Source of the DNA: Escherichia coli
Lineage (GTDB): Bacteria > Pseudomonadota > Gammaproteobacteria > Enterobacterales > Enterobacteriaceae
DNA: 64,000 nt
Direction: 5' to 3' (one strand)
NCBI RefSeq assembly: GCF_003018115.1
Contig: NZ_CP027457.1
Part shown: piece after piece, positions 15,601 to 18,600 of the stretch
Position numbering within the stretch: position 1 is the first letter of the stretch
Layout of the letters: each line of letters opens with the position of its first letter
Program-made: the position numbers

Positions 15601-18600
15601 CCTTCATACTTATCATGGATATTGCCAGTCATTGTTGCTGCTCCTTTGCTTCTGATTTTCCCGTTAACAACCACATCAGGTCACAATTAAGAGCACTGGC
15701 CAGTGGTACTATCTGAGCAGCTGGAACTTCATGGATGACGCATTCCCAGTCGTTTATGGGGTCGCTGTAGGTATTAATCATGCGGGCAAGATCAGATTCG
15801 GTTAATCCCAGGTTTTTACGGGCGCTTTTGATGCGAGCGCCAATACTTTCTTCCCGTGGTTCTGGCACATTTACGCGAATAACAGACGCGCTATCTTTTT
15901 CATCCAGCAAAGAAAGAGGATCGCACCCAAGGACGTTTGCCAGGGGGATAAGCATGCTGATGGTCGGTTCGAACTCTCCGCTCTCCCATTGCAGGATGAT
16001 CTCTTCATCGAGATCAAGCAGTTTGGCAAGTTCGGTGGTCGTTAAGCCGCAGGCTTCACGTTGGGCACGGATTTTTCCAAAAAAGTGACCGTGCGAAACC
16101 ATAGCTTTTGCCTCACATAGTTTTTCTGCAAAAATTGATGCAGTTTCTTCTGTTTTTTGCAGGGAACGCATCAGGCATCTGATTGCATTATAAACCCTCT
16201 CACTTTCTGCTCCGTTTTCTGACATGTAGGAATAGATCATTCCAAGCAGCGAGCCGCCTTCTTGTATTTGTGCTGCAATTTCATCCATCACCTTAACTGC
16301 ATGCTTCATATGAGCCTCCTGTTGTTTTAATTTTACAATAGCCAAGGCGTTTGGTTGTGTCAATCGCTATAGCTATGTATTTTGGGCAGCAAAGAACAGA
16401 TTATGAGAGAAATGAGACGATACGTAGGGAGTTGAGATACAGGAAAGTAGAGCAGCTGCGCAATACAGCTGCCGGTGATATTGACTTATCCGACCCTGTT
16501 ATACTGGATTGACTGATGAATGAGAACTTTCCCCATTATGAATAGATGTTCTTCAGCTGATTCACTTATAAACCATTCCTTGTAGGCCGGATTGTCTGAT
16601 ATAACAGCAAGTTGCATCCCTTGCATTTGCAGGCGTTTGATATGGAAGGTGTGCCCAAAAATAAAAATATATATACCGTCAGTTTCAAAATTTCTGACGG
16701 ATACGTCGACAAACACCTGATCTCCTGCACACAGAGTAGGAGCCATGCTGTCGCCATTAACTGTTATCATCTTTATGATATTTGCTGGCCTGCTACAGAA
16801 CAGGCGTCTTGCGGCGTCATGTGAAAATTCTATAGCATGGACCGTTTCTGCAAAATCTGAAACAAGGAATGTTCCTGGTCCCGCGCTGGCAGCGATATCC
16901 AGGACTTCCACACGAAAAATATCCTTATCATTTTCTTGCGGGGGATATGATTCCTGCGGTGTCAGATTGCAGGATGTGCTTTCTTCTGAGTTCATAGGGC
17001 CAACGCCGTATGATAGCCACTCAGGGCGTACGTTCAGGATATTGGCGATTTCCACAACTTTTCTTGAACCCGTGGCACCATTAACCAGTTTATTGACGCT
17101 CGATTGAGCCATGCCAACTTCTCTGGCCAGTTTTCCCTGTGAGTATCCTCGGATAGTCATAGCTAACTGTAGCCTGTCTGAAAAGCTCATAAGTCCTCCT
17201 TTTTCTGTCCTTTTAGTGTATCGCCTTAGCGATATATACACAAACCGCTTTTTCGCGCATTGCAATCGCTTTATTCAATCGCTATAGTGAATATCATAAG
17301 GCTGGAGGTCGATATGAAAAATGAAGGTATAGCCAAGGCTGTAGATATTGCAGGAAGCCAGCTTGCTCTGGCAAAGCGTTGTGGTCGCGCGCAGTCAACA
17401 ATTTGCGACTGGCTGAATGGGAAGAAAAAAATTTCTCCTGAATTTGTTCCGTCTCTGGTTAAGGCGGTTGATGGGAAAGTCCAGGCGTATGAATTTCGTC
17501 CTGATCTACCGGAGCTTTTCCCACACCCAAGCTTAGCGCACACAGAGGATGAGAAGTGATGGTGGTGATATGAGCGAAAAAATAACTATTAAATACGATG
17601 GGGCAACCATTTCGATTGCCCCAATCACATTAGCGTTCGCTGAGAAGTTGTTGGTAAGCCTTAAAGGATGCGAACTGCATTCTACCTTCGGCATTGATTC
17701 CAATGCCTTCGCTTGTACACCAGGCGATGAACTCGGCTGTATCCGCTTCAACTTTAATAACTCGTTGCCCGCTTCTTTCGACACGCTTAATCAATTTTTC
17801 AGCGTCGTGTTTCCACTCGGTGTAACTGTCGGAGAGCACATCAGCATCAGTAAAAATATTTTTGAGCTCATGATACTGAATCGCATCGCGAAACCAGAAT
17901 AAACCAACGGCCTGAACTTTCATGTCGAACCTCCTTTGGTTCTTTTGTTTATAGGGATCAACAGGATAACTGAAGGAAGGTTCGGCACCAATAAGTACGA
18001 AAGTGCGGAATCTTAAAAGAATTTATCCGTAAGGAGATGGCAGTGAACACCGTAATTTTTAACGGCAAAGCATCCATGACCAGCGTTGAGATCGCAGAGC
18101 TGGTGGGAAGCCAGCATTCAGATGTTAAACGTAATATCGAACGCCTGGTTGCCAAAAGCATAATCCGGAAACCGCCAATGGCTGTTTCCGAGAAAATCAA
18201 TAACTTAGGGTTTAAAGTTCAACATGAGCATTACTTGTTTGAAGGCGAACAAGGCAAACGCGACAGCATCATTGTTGTCGCACAGCTTTGCCCTGAATTC
18301 ACCGACTGCCTGGTAGATCGCTGGCGTGAACTGGAAAAACAAATCCGCAAACCAATGAGCCAGATCGAAATGGTTGCTGCAATGGCGCTTGAAGCTGTTC
18401 GCCAACAAAGACGTCTTGAGCAGGTGGAAGAGAAAGTCACCTACGTTACTGAAACCGTCGAGCGAATCAAAAGAGGCACCATACGCGATGGTTATGCAGG
18501 CTACCGTCAGCTGGTAGCGAAAACGGGTATGTCAGATGCGAAATGCCGCAATCTGGTGAACGCATATCAGATCCCTACCGACCCCCATGAGTTCATGAGG

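What the first reader, a model, noticed from the sequence alone, without database searches (positions are those of the whole stretch)
17560..18036. Convergent gene immediately after cro interrupts the expected rightward operon
In lambdoid phages cro is followed co-directionally by cII and replication genes. Here a 97-aa minus-strand gene with a strong AGGAGG RBS converges on cro, and the downstream genes (Rha, Bro, O-like) start after a separate divergent intergenic region (17924-18036). Rightward early transcription must either read antisense through this gene or restart. Could be an inserted regulatory or exclusion gene.
Basis: partly seen in the sequence, partly recalled or inferred. Interest (0 to 1): 0.5.

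Follow-up and report, generated by a model that had tools for sequence, protein, structure and literature searches.

The report
Backward gene nested after phage cro
A small, well-conserved prophage gene of unknown function sits backwards inside the phage's early lytic operon just after cro, as a self-contained cassette that early transcription most likely reads straight through, so it is probably expressed only while the prophage is silent.

Summary
A 97-aa ORF (17630-17923, minus strand, AAGGAGG RBS) converges on a YdaS-type cro (17314-17559).

It is a real gene:
- dN/dS is 0.03-0.12, against about 1 for the overlapping plus-strand ORF.
- It matches PHROG 4753 over its full length.
- AlphaFold gives pLDDT 91, against 41 for the plus ORF.

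The gene is part of a roughly 460-bp cassette. The cassette has a conserved weak promoter-like block and a 3' hairpin. Compensatory changes and G·U pairs in that hairpin fit only the leftward RNA.

The cassette occupies the same slot in E. coli, Salmonella, Klebsiella, Pectobacterium and Serratia prophages with many different immunity types. It lies after cro, or after cII in one lineage. In SfII and ST64B, cro and cII are directly adjacent, so the cassette is moron-like.

The "operon interrupted or restart" reading is not favoured:
- There is no rightward promoter-like site.
- The hairpin is unidirectional.
- A structure conserved on the rightward RNA spans the intergenic region.
- Relatives leave only about 80 nt before the next gene.

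Protein function is unknown. The only fold match is SO3848, an Aca2-like protein. The family has about 2,400 clusters and no Pfam model.

One open possibility is that the co-directional ORF is kept open as a translated "bridge".

The parts
17314..17559 (+). cro-like repressor gene (81 aa, YdaS-type HTH). Its last ~11 codons belong to the conserved cassette-side module.
   Evidence: Pfam PF15943 E 1.9e-15 and phrog_35 E 8e-24. RefSeq CDS. E. coli genomes with other cI/cro types share sequence only from about window 17515-17527 rightwards.
17630..17923 (-). 97-aa protein-coding gene (WP_000867913.1, PHROG 4753). It is cytosolic (pI 5.65, no TM segment) with a small alpha/beta fold.
   Evidence: dN/dS 0.03-0.12 and codon-position variation 30/13/70. 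AF2 pLDDT 91.4, pTM 0.80. pI and hydropathy.
17930..17936 (-). Shine-Dalgarno AAGGAGG, 6 nt upstream of the ATG of the 97-aa gene
   Evidence: Read directly from the sequence. Conserved in all lineages.
17962..17990 (-). Putative leftward promoter of the 97-aa gene: -35 TTGGTG (17990-17985), 17-nt spacer, -10 TATCCT (17967-17962). This is inferred.
   Evidence: The block TTGGTGCCGAACCT...(G/T)AT(A/C)(T/C)T is conserved across lineages whose synonymous sites are saturated. It matches only 7/12 of consensus and was not reported by the consensus scan.
17592..17631 (-). 3' hairpin of the leftward transcript, starting 7 nt after the stop. The core 9-bp stem pairs 17614-17622 with 17600-17608, followed by a U-rich tail. 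It is terminator-like in this lineage.
   Evidence: Terminator-like hit on the minus strand. MFE -24.1 kcal/mol (z -3.0) on the minus strand against -17.1 (z -0.8) on the plus strand. It is more stable on the leftward RNA in 15 of 17 variants. Core stem is 151/153 cells paired on leftward RNA against 128/153 on rightward, with G·U 24 against 1, compensatory pairs present, and covariation score reached by 0/500 shuffles.
17923..17987 (+). Long stem-loop on the rightward (PR-sense) RNA. It spans the antisense of the 97-aa gene's start, RBS and promoter block.
   Evidence: MFE -30.4 kcal/mol, z -5.2, 0/200 shuffles. Consensus of 16 pairs, 92% paired, one UA<->CG covarying pair. 206/224 cells pair on plus RNA against 182/224 on minus RNA, with G·U 32 against 8.
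17570..17902 (+). Co-directional ORF (110 codons from ATG 17570; also open from ATG 17549) running antisense across 93% of the 97-aa gene. It is not a conserved protein, but it may be translated as a 'bridge'.
   Evidence: dN/dS 0.65-1.25. AF2 pLDDT 41. An SD plus start codon is found in all 12 lineages examined, and the frame is open to the next gene's start in 7 of the 11 lineages. The start region is homologous to the cII translation-initiation region of SfII.
17924..18036 (.). 113-nt intergenic region. The left 65 nt are cassette. The right ~45 nt include a remnant (about 18013-18031, AAAGAATTTATCCGTAAG) of the 5' end of the gene that follows the cassette in relatives, fused to the Rha module.
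   Evidence: No rightward promoter-like site reaches 9/12 or better.
18043..18750 (+). Rha-family regulator, the first gene after the cassette. The alternative start is ATG 18037.
   Evidence: Pfam Phage_pRha E 4.5e-6. RefSeq CDS starts at GTG 18043.
16486..17190 (-). cI-type repressor (HTH_3 plus Peptidase_S24)
17260..17320 (.). Back-to-back promoter-like sites: PR-like TTGCAA-17-TATAGT (+, 17260-17288) and PRM-like TTTTCA-16-TATGAT (-, 17320-17293)

Best explanation
The 97-aa ORF is a genuine gene carried on a compact, self-contained leftward transcription unit. The unit has a conserved weak promoter block, a strong RBS, the CDS and a leftward-only 3' hairpin. It is nested antisense inside the PR early operon, in the slot between cro and the next early gene. 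It has the architecture of a prophage 'moron' cassette. The PR operon is not broken by it. The hairpin stops or stabilises only the leftward RNA just short of cro. Rightward PR transcription most likely reads through the cassette in antisense to reach Rha, Bro and the replication genes. Because the two transcripts converge over about 400 bp, expression should be reciprocal. The gene would be made when PR is repressed (prophage state). It would be shut down by collision and antisense pairing once PR fires. Its own transcription may in turn damp leaky PR read-through in lysogens. The product is a small soluble alpha/beta protein whose only structural relative is SO3848, an Aca2-like putative regulator. 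The match is probably to the non-HTH part of SO3848, so the protein most likely acts by protein-protein binding rather than on DNA. Shown here: the coding strand, purifying selection, the fold, the fixed position, the cassette boundaries and the strand-specific RNA structures. Inferred: the promoter, read-through, reciprocal expression and the protein's mode of action.
For: The gene is real. It matches PHROG 4753 with E 1.5e-49. Orthologues are intact in five genera. dN/dS is 0.03-0.12 with pS 0.57-0.85. AF2 gives pLDDT 91.4.

The position is fixed. The gene lies convergent just after cro beside at least 8 different cI/cro types, followed by different next genes: Rha, phrog_4439, a CII-like activator, Bro-N. 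In a 60%-identity lineage it lies after cII. In distant homologues it faces the leftward early operon beside cI or follows an Alcaligenes cro-like gene.

It lies between genes that are adjacent in relatives. cro and cII overlap by 8 nt in SfII and are about 35 nt apart in ST64B.

The hairpin is leftward-only and carries covariation.

Read-through is supported on five counts. No rightward promoter-like site lies between PR and Rha. The plus-strand stem-loop has z -5.2 and is better paired on rightward RNA. Relatives have about 80 nt between the cassette ATG and the next start codon. No N-like gene was found among the six ORFs scanned, five left of cI and one right of it. The rightward RNA over the gene is C-rich.

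Concept: independently transcribed units antisense to lytic genes are typical accessory loci expressed in lysogens (PMC7067206). Transcriptional interference between convergent promoters is established (PMC5001618).
Against: No expression data exist, and the promoter is only a 7/12 consensus match missed by the scan. In relatives the 3' hairpin lacks a good U-tract and is not flagged as terminator-like, so leftward transcripts may not stop before cro there. GC content does not differ from the flanks, unlike classical morons. The window's lineage has an extra ~45 nt and a truncated co-directional ORF, so a Rha-specific promoter cannot be excluded. Support for the plus-strand structure is modest: one covarying pair, 10/500 shuffles reached the score, and the structure was derived from that strand. 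The fold match gives no function, and the tool reports no residue ranges, so assigning it to the non-HTH part of SO3848 is an inference.
Confidence: 0.6

Rival explanations
1. True interruption and restart. PR transcripts end after cro. Rha, Bro and the replication genes are driven by a separate rightward promoter in the 113-nt intergenic region, divergent from the 97-aa gene's promoter.
For: The window lineage has ~45 extra nt upstream of Rha, and its co-directional ORF stops at 17902, leaving 134 untranslated nt. Rha-type modules are mosaic units that could bring their own promoter. The rightward RNA over the gene is C-rich and so a plausible Rho substrate.
Against: No sigma-70-like site on the plus strand between 17289 and 18800. 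The extra 45 nt look like a remnant of the displaced gene's 5' end rather than a promoter. The hairpin after cro is weak on the rightward RNA and lacks a downstream U-tract. Relatives have no room for a second promoter.
Confidence: 0.2
2. PRE-like establishment transcript. The leftward promoter is activator-dependent (CII-like). Its RNA runs through the 97-aa gene, antisense through cro and into cI, as lambda PRE does. The 97-aa gene would then be an establishment-phase gene.
For: Geometry resembles lambda PRE: a leftward promoter abuts the 5' end of a CII-like gene in L044 and L052, and by Pfam Phage_CP76 also in L054 and L055. The -35/-10 match is weak. The hairpin has no good U-tract in most relatives. 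cI here has its own strong SD.
Against: The promoter block is conserved unchanged beside unrelated next genes and unrelated cI/cro/CII types, which is unexpected for an activator-specific site. The hairpin is strongly conserved with covariation and is terminator-like in the window. In Klebsiella Rac-like prophages the homologue points into cI in antisense.
Confidence: 0.1
3. The plus-strand ORF (17549/17570-17902) is the real protein-coding gene, and the minus ORF is its shadow.
For: The GenBank annotation of phage EKP1 calls the cro-co-directional ORF instead. A gene caller called both ORFs in Pectobacterium. The ORF has an SD and start codon in every lineage examined.
Against: Variation concentrates at its codon position 1 (70 columns, against 13 and 30). 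Its dN/dS is 0.65-1.25, against 0.03-0.12 for the minus frame. Per-codon entropy is higher in the plus frame throughout the overlap. AF2 pLDDT is 41, against 91.
Confidence: 0.02

Closest known systems
Prophage 'moron' / accessory loci: autonomous promoter-gene-terminator units, often antisense to lytic genes (e.g. lambda bor, from my own knowledge; STMMW_20121 of ST64B in PMC7067206)
   Same: A compact unit with its own RBS, promoter-like block and 3' hairpin. It sits between two genes that are adjacent in related phages (cro and cII in SfII and ST64B). It is oriented against the surrounding lytic operon.
   Different: GC content does not differ from the flanks. It occupies one fixed regulatory slot next to the immunity genes across many immunity types, rather than a variable late-region site. 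Expression in lysogens is untested. The protein family is uncharacterised.
Lambda antisense elements of the PR operon (PRE transcript through cro; OOP RNA opposite the 3' end of cII). Known from my own knowledge; OOP is mentioned in PMC7067206 and PMC5869508.
   Same: Leftward transcription converging on PR-driven genes immediately downstream of cro or cII.
   Different: Here the leftward RNA encodes a conserved 97-aa protein and appears to end before cro. No CII-binding repeats are evident. The element travels as a cassette independent of immunity type.
Convergent-promoter transcriptional interference switches (coliphage 186 pR/pL; PMC5001618, PMC6593788)
   Same: A strong lytic promoter and a weaker opposing promoter transcribe across each other. 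This predicts reciprocal expression.
   Different: The promoters here are about 660 bp apart, separated by cro and a whole gene. Interference has not been measured.
SO3848 (PDB 2ox6), an Aca2/YdiL-like putative HTH regulator
   Different: 12-15% identity and no sequence-level relationship. The phage protein has 97 aa and no detectable HTH, so at most it corresponds to the non-DNA-binding part. SO3848 itself has no known function.
Superinfection-exclusion or defence genes next to cI (rexAB, sieB, bstA)
   Same: Location beside the immunity genes and a likely lysogen-phase expression logic.
   Different: No PADLOC hit and no membrane segment. It is a single 11-kDa soluble protein, and no phenotype is known.

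Membership tests
PHROG 4753 (phage protein family, unknown function) | Full-length match to the family profile | tested here: met
   E 1.5e-49, residues 1-97 on profile positions 1-97 of 97
Moron / autonomous prophage accessory unit | Lies between two genes that are adjacent in related phages | tested here: met
   cro and cII overlap by 8 nt in SfII and lie ~35 nt apart in ST64B. The homologous cII (69-77% identity) is separated from cro by the cassette in L052, L044, L054 and L055.
Moron / autonomous prophage accessory unit | Own factor-independent terminator | tested here: met
   The window meets the hairpin-plus-U criteria on the minus strand. The hairpin is conserved with covariation and is leftward-specific. 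Relatives lack a good U-tract.
Moron / autonomous prophage accessory unit | Own sigma-70 promoter | tested here: inconclusive
   A conserved TTGGTG-17-TATCCT block, but only 7/12 of consensus and not reported by the scan
Moron / autonomous prophage accessory unit | Base composition distinct from neighbours | tested here: not met
   GC 0.455-0.465 over the gene against 0.43-0.475 in the flanks
Moron / autonomous prophage accessory unit | Expressed in the lysogen while lytic genes are silent | not testable with these tools
   Needs strand-specific RNA-seq of a lysogen
Aca2 / YdiL / SO3848-type HTH regulators | [quoted passage not shown] | tested here: not met
   No HTH family among the Pfam hits at E<=0.1. 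The predicted topology is beta-alpha-alpha-beta-alpha-alpha in 97 aa.
Aca2 / YdiL / SO3848-type HTH regulators | Shared fold with the family's globular core or C-terminal part | tested here: inconclusive
Aca2 / YdiL / SO3848-type HTH regulators | Detectable sequence homology | tested here: not met
   Profile searches of PDB sequences with A1 and A6 do not find 2ox6
Known anti-phage defence systems (PADLOC) | Match to a defence-protein model | tested here: not met
   0 families at E<=1
Lambda-type nutR / tR1 or any curated RNA in the cro-downstream slot | Match to an Rfam family | tested here: not met
   No Rfam match at E<=1 in 16400-18800

The most novel reading that the evidence does not exclude
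The cassette may be 'translationally transparent'. The co-directional ORF starts at a relic of the interrupted gene's own translation-initiation region. In the cII-linked lineages this is SD plus GTG GGT AAA, homologous to the SfII cII start. The ORF would be kept open across the entire antisense gene and its promoter region until it overlaps the restarted downstream gene's start codon (ATGA or ATGAATGA). Ribosomes would then escort PR-initiated RNA polymerase through about 440 nt of C-rich antisense RNA and shield it from Rho, in lambdoid phages where no N-type antiterminator was found. This would be a pair of fully overlapping antiparallel translated ORFs, one selected for its protein and the other only for being open. 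In the window's lineage the bridge is 93% retained, ending at a TTA codon for Leu8.
Probability: 0.25. Interest if true: 0.75.

Novelty: new variant of a known kind. Interest (0 to 1): 0.5.

Why it matters
It identifies a recurrent, position-specific cassette in the regulatory core of enterobacterial lambdoid prophages. About 5% of complete E. coli genomes carry it (271 of 5,426). The gene is nested backwards in the PR operon exactly where lambda has nutR/tR1.

The protein belongs to a large family, about 2,400 clusters at 50% identity, with no Pfam model. Its members are repeatedly found next to immunity genes in the contexts examined.

If expression really is reciprocal with PR, this is a simple built-in device. 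It would mark a gene as "lysogen-only" and could sharpen the lysis-lysogeny switch by convergent transcription.

It also corrects annotations. Phage EKP1 has the wrong strand annotated. The plus ORF 17549-17902 should not be called a gene.

It offers a clean natural test case for how a phage operon tolerates an antisense insertion, whether by Rho evasion or by a bridge ORF.

Tried and rejected
- Pfam, NCBIfam and PADLOC scans of the 97-aa protein found nothing significant.
- Profile searches of PDB sequences found nothing.
- BFVD fold search found only two uncharacterised viral proteins. The AFDB library was unavailable.
- The genome-contig scan returned only two loci.
- Rfam had no match.
- A search for the cI operator palindrome TATCGC-N4-GCGATA found no site near the 97-aa promoter. 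Regulation by this phage's cI is therefore not indicated. It would also be unexpected, because the cassette occurs with many immunity types.
- I considered and rejected the plus ORF as the true gene.
- I tested whether the minus gene avoids codons that would create antisense stops (TTA, CTA, TCA). Two of 40 Leu/Ser column-codon states are such codons, against about 5-7 expected. My estimate is p ~0.02-0.13, which is too weak to claim selection.
- The apparent peptide conservation of the plus ORF's first 20 codons is largely explained by the leftward hairpin. A->E and A->S changes keep the stem.
- The overlap of the ORF's end with the next start codon partly follows from the ATGAATGA sequence itself, which gives a stop in two frames. 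L034 has a 2-nt indel and still ends there.
- Terminal inverted repeats of a mobile element were looked for and not found.
- The JGI label 'RNase H fold nuclease' is not supported.
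Full report
**Observation.** The window is an E. coli lambdoid prophage, 100% identical over the queried 901 bases (17200-18100) to E. coli O178:H19 2012C-4431 and five other genomes. An S24-peptidase cI repressor (16486-17190, minus strand) diverges from an 81-aa YdaS-type HTH cro (17314-17559, plus strand). The 97-aa ORF lies at 17630-17923 on the minus strand. AAGGAGG sits 6 nt before its ATG. A 113-nt gap follows (17924-18036), and then the genes Rha, Bro-N, Rha, an O-like gene, a DnaC-like gene and DnaB. The competing plus-strand ORF 17549-17902 also exists. 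It is in the exact reverse-complement frame, which is the frame most prone to 'shadow' ORFs.

**Which strand codes.**
- RefSeq annotates the minus ORF as WP_000867913.1.
- The minus ORF matches phrog_4753 end to end with E 1.5e-49.
- Orthologues of 95-97 aa at 73-99% identity occur in E. coli, Salmonella, Klebsiella, Pectobacterium and Serratia, with no frame disruptions.
- On 15 distinct gene sequences, variable columns by minus-frame codon position 1/2/3 number 30/13/70.
- Nei-Gojobori dN/dS is 0.03-0.12 for the minus frame, with synonymous sites near saturation (pS 0.57-0.85). It is 0.65-1.25 for the plus frame.
- Per-codon amino-acid entropy is lower in the minus frame along the whole overlap.
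- With alignments of equal depth (13 sequences), AlphaFold2 gives pLDDT 91.4 and pTM 0.80 for the minus product, and pLDDT 41 and pTM 0.31 for the plus product.

The minus ORF is the gene. The GenBank record of phage EKP1 annotates the wrong strand at the homologous locus.

**A cassette in a fixed slot.** The sequence is present in 271 of 5,426 complete E. coli genomes. Only six share the window's cI/cro. The others match only from about 17515-17527 rightwards, inside the last codons of cro.

Across the loci fetched, the gene always lies convergent just after cro. The cro genes are of different families: YdaS-type, P22_Cro, lambda Cro and unassigned. The neighbouring cI genes also differ. The genes that follow differ too: Rha, a phrog_4439 protein, a CII-like activator (phrog_101 / Phage_CP76) or Bro-N.

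More distant members keep the same logic:
- A 60%-identity lineage has the gene after cII.
- An Alcaligenes homologue at about 33% identity follows a cro-like gene.
- Klebsiella Rac-like prophages place a 104-aa homologue beside cI, pointing against the leftward early operon.

In SfII and ST64B, the cII gene is 69-77% identical to the one that follows the cassette in L052. In those phages cro and cII overlap by 8 nt or are about 35 nt apart. The roughly 460-bp unit therefore lies between genes that are adjacent in relatives, which is the defining feature of a moron. Its GC content does not differ from the flanks.

**RNA elements define two transcripts.**

*The 3' hairpin.* Starting 7 nt after the stop codon there is a hairpin (core stem 17614-17622 paired with 17600-17608) followed by a U-rich tail. 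The scan flags it as terminator-like on the minus strand. Across 17 variants:
- The 9-bp core is paired in 151/153 cells on the leftward RNA but only 128/153 on the rightward RNA.
- G·U pairs number 24 against 1.
- Three pairs show compensatory changes, for example GCAA/TTGC to GAGA/TCTC.
- The covariation score exceeds all 500 shuffles.
- The structure is thermodynamically better on the leftward RNA in 15 of 17 variants.

This is evolutionary evidence for a leftward mRNA that ends, or is stabilised, just short of cro. On the rightward RNA the hairpin is weak and has no U-tract after it, so it should not stop PR transcription. In relatives the U-tract is poor, so termination efficiency may vary.

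*The 5' side.* About 70 nt upstream of the ATG are conserved between lineages whose synonymous sites are saturated. This block includes TTGGTG-17-TATCCT, a weak (7/12) promoter-like match that the scan did not report. The same region folds on the plus strand into a long stem-loop (17923-17987; -30.4 kcal/mol, z -5.2). The minus strand gives -22 kcal/mol (z -3.4). Across 14 distinct sequences the stem is 92% paired on rightward RNA against 81% on leftward RNA. G·U pairs number 32 against 8, and one pair covaries UA<->CG. This evidence is only suggestive, because the structure was derived from the plus strand. If real, it implies that rightward transcripts cross the cassette.

**Read-through or restart.** Five observations favour read-through:
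- No sigma-70-like site on the plus strand lies between PR (17260-17288) and beyond Rha.
- In most relatives the next gene starts only about 80 nt from the cassette's ATG. That space is occupied by the leftward promoter block and the stem-loop.
- The window's extra ~45 nt contain AAAGAATTTATCCGTAAG. This looks like a remnant of the N-terminal codons (xDFIRKH) of the phrog_4439 gene that follows the cassette elsewhere, fused to the Rha module.
- No N-like antiterminator was found among the six ORFs scanned. The first gene left of cI is a CII-like HTH regulator.
- The rightward RNA over the gene is C-rich, with GC skew -0.14 to -0.165.

I therefore favour antisense read-through from PR (about 0.6) over restart (about 0.2). 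Only transcript mapping can settle this.

**The co-directional ORF.** It is not a conserved protein, but it has odd properties.
- All 12 lineages examined have an SD plus start codon in this frame 54-117 nt before the antisense of the stop codon. It often abuts the upstream gene's stop (TGAcATG, TAATG).
- In 7 of the 11 lineages the frame stays open across the whole gene and the intergenic region. It ends in a 4- or 8-nt overlap with the next start codon.
- In the window it ends at 17902, at a TTA codon for Leu8 of the 97-aa gene.

Part of this has a mundane origin:
- In the cII-linked lineages the start region (CCACAGAATCAAGGGGTTAACCGTGGGTAAAG) is homologous to the SfII cII initiation region (CCACAGGAACAGGAGGTGAACCGTGGGTAAG; 25/30 by my own count). 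It is therefore a relic of an insertion just inside cII.
- The ATGAATGA start of cII supplies stop codons in two frames.
- The 'conserved' first 20 codons mostly reflect the leftward hairpin.
- Avoidance of antisense-stop codons is weak: 2 of 40 states, which I estimate at p ~0.02-0.13.

The idea that the frame is kept open so that ribosomes shield PR read-through from Rho remains a hypothesis, at about 0.25. The principle that Rho terminates untranslated and antisense RNA is in PMC11551753.

**The protein.** It is 11.3 kDa with pI 5.65 and no hydrophobic segment. The predicted topology is beta-alpha-alpha-beta-alpha-alpha.

An exhaustive profile search finds 2,399 clusters at E<=1e-3 and 612 at E<=1e-10. 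Among the 150 best hits listed, almost all are stand-alone proteins of about 95-115 aa. Ten representatives had no Pfam family above the curated cut-off. Across 70 diverse members, only D26 and W37 are invariant, and G52, F65, C69 and R81 are nearly so. A JGI label 'RNase H fold nuclease' on one member is not supported. Function remains unknown. Two of 33 viral-contig copies carry premature stops.

**Verdict.** This is a real, conserved, self-contained antisense gene cassette nested in the PR operon next to the immunity genes. It is best described as a position-specific, moron-like unit. Its expression is probably reciprocal with PR through convergent transcription, by the logic of phage 186 pR/pL (PMC5001618). 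Independently transcribed antisense accessory units in prophages are a known pattern (PMC7067206). It is a new variant of a known kind, of moderate interest. It would be of higher interest if the bridge-ORF reading or a role in the lysis-lysogeny switch were confirmed.

Noticed in passing
L004 (Elizabethkingia phage EKP1, OM284015.1) 4001-4279 (+) versus annotated CDS 4064-4396 (-): The GenBank record annotates the cro-co-directional shadow ORF ('hypothetical protein 21') rather than the conserved 92-aa homologue on the other strand. This is probably a misannotation. The immunity region of this 'Elizabethkingia' phage also looks enterobacterial-lambdoid.
   Followed up: partly
window 18013-18043: AAAGAATTTATCCGTAAG upstream of Rha resembles the N-terminal codons (xDFIRKH) of the phrog_4439 gene that follows the cassette in Klebsiella/Salmonella relatives and EKP1. 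This suggests the Rha module recombined into that gene's 5' end. The resulting AAGGAG (18031-18036) is better spaced for GTG 18043 (the PGAP start) than for ATG 18037.
   Followed up: partly
L045, L053, L004 at the cro stop (e.g. L045 ~4366-4380): A perfect 12-bp palindrome GTGACATGTCAC spans the cro stop codon and the start of the co-directional ORF (TGAcATG) in several relatives. It could be a protein-binding site or just a coupling junction. In L053 an 8-codon mini-ORF links it to the next ATG by an ATGA overlap.
   Followed up: no
L026 and L033 (IMG/VR contigs), gene at 5001-5294: Two of 33 viral-contig copies of the 97-aa gene carry premature stop codons (W37* and E36*), so the gene is dispensable in some prophages.
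   Followed up: no
window 15629-16363 (-): The first gene left of cI is a two-HTH protein matching 'CII-like regulator' phrog_4836 (E 2.7e-52). No N-like antiterminator was found in the leftward operon.
   Followed up: partly
window 17219-17234 and 17263-17288: A perfect palindrome TATCGCCTTAGCGATA and tandem CAATCGCT(T/A)TA(T/G)T repeats lie in the cI-cro intergenic region. These are likely operators. A second perfect TATCGC-N4-GCGATA occurs at 60355-60370.
   Followed up: no
window 17570-17584 and 17857-17871: A 15-nt inverted repeat (87% complementary, 272 nt apart) pairs the start of the co-directional ORF with a site inside the 97-aa gene. It may be chance.
   Followed up: no
protein family level: The 97-aa protein belongs to a large family with no Pfam model on the representatives tested: 2,399 clusters at 50% identity, consensus G..WY...D...LP.TY..W...G..VVK..DP.EF..WC...DA.AR..FA. 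A few members are tandem or fused forms (506, 319 and 206 aa) in Holophagales MAGs.
   Followed up: partly
window 13276-14288 (-): An SPFH/Band-7 domain lipoprotein-like gene and a small membrane protein (phrog_1130, category 'moron') lie in the leftward operon near xis/int.
   Followed up: no
L003 (Burkholderia phage Bcep176) gp15-gp20: The distant homologue gp17 sits in a six-gene block transcribed divergently from a CII-like gene (gp14). This is a larger version of an opposite-strand block inside the early region.
   Followed up: no
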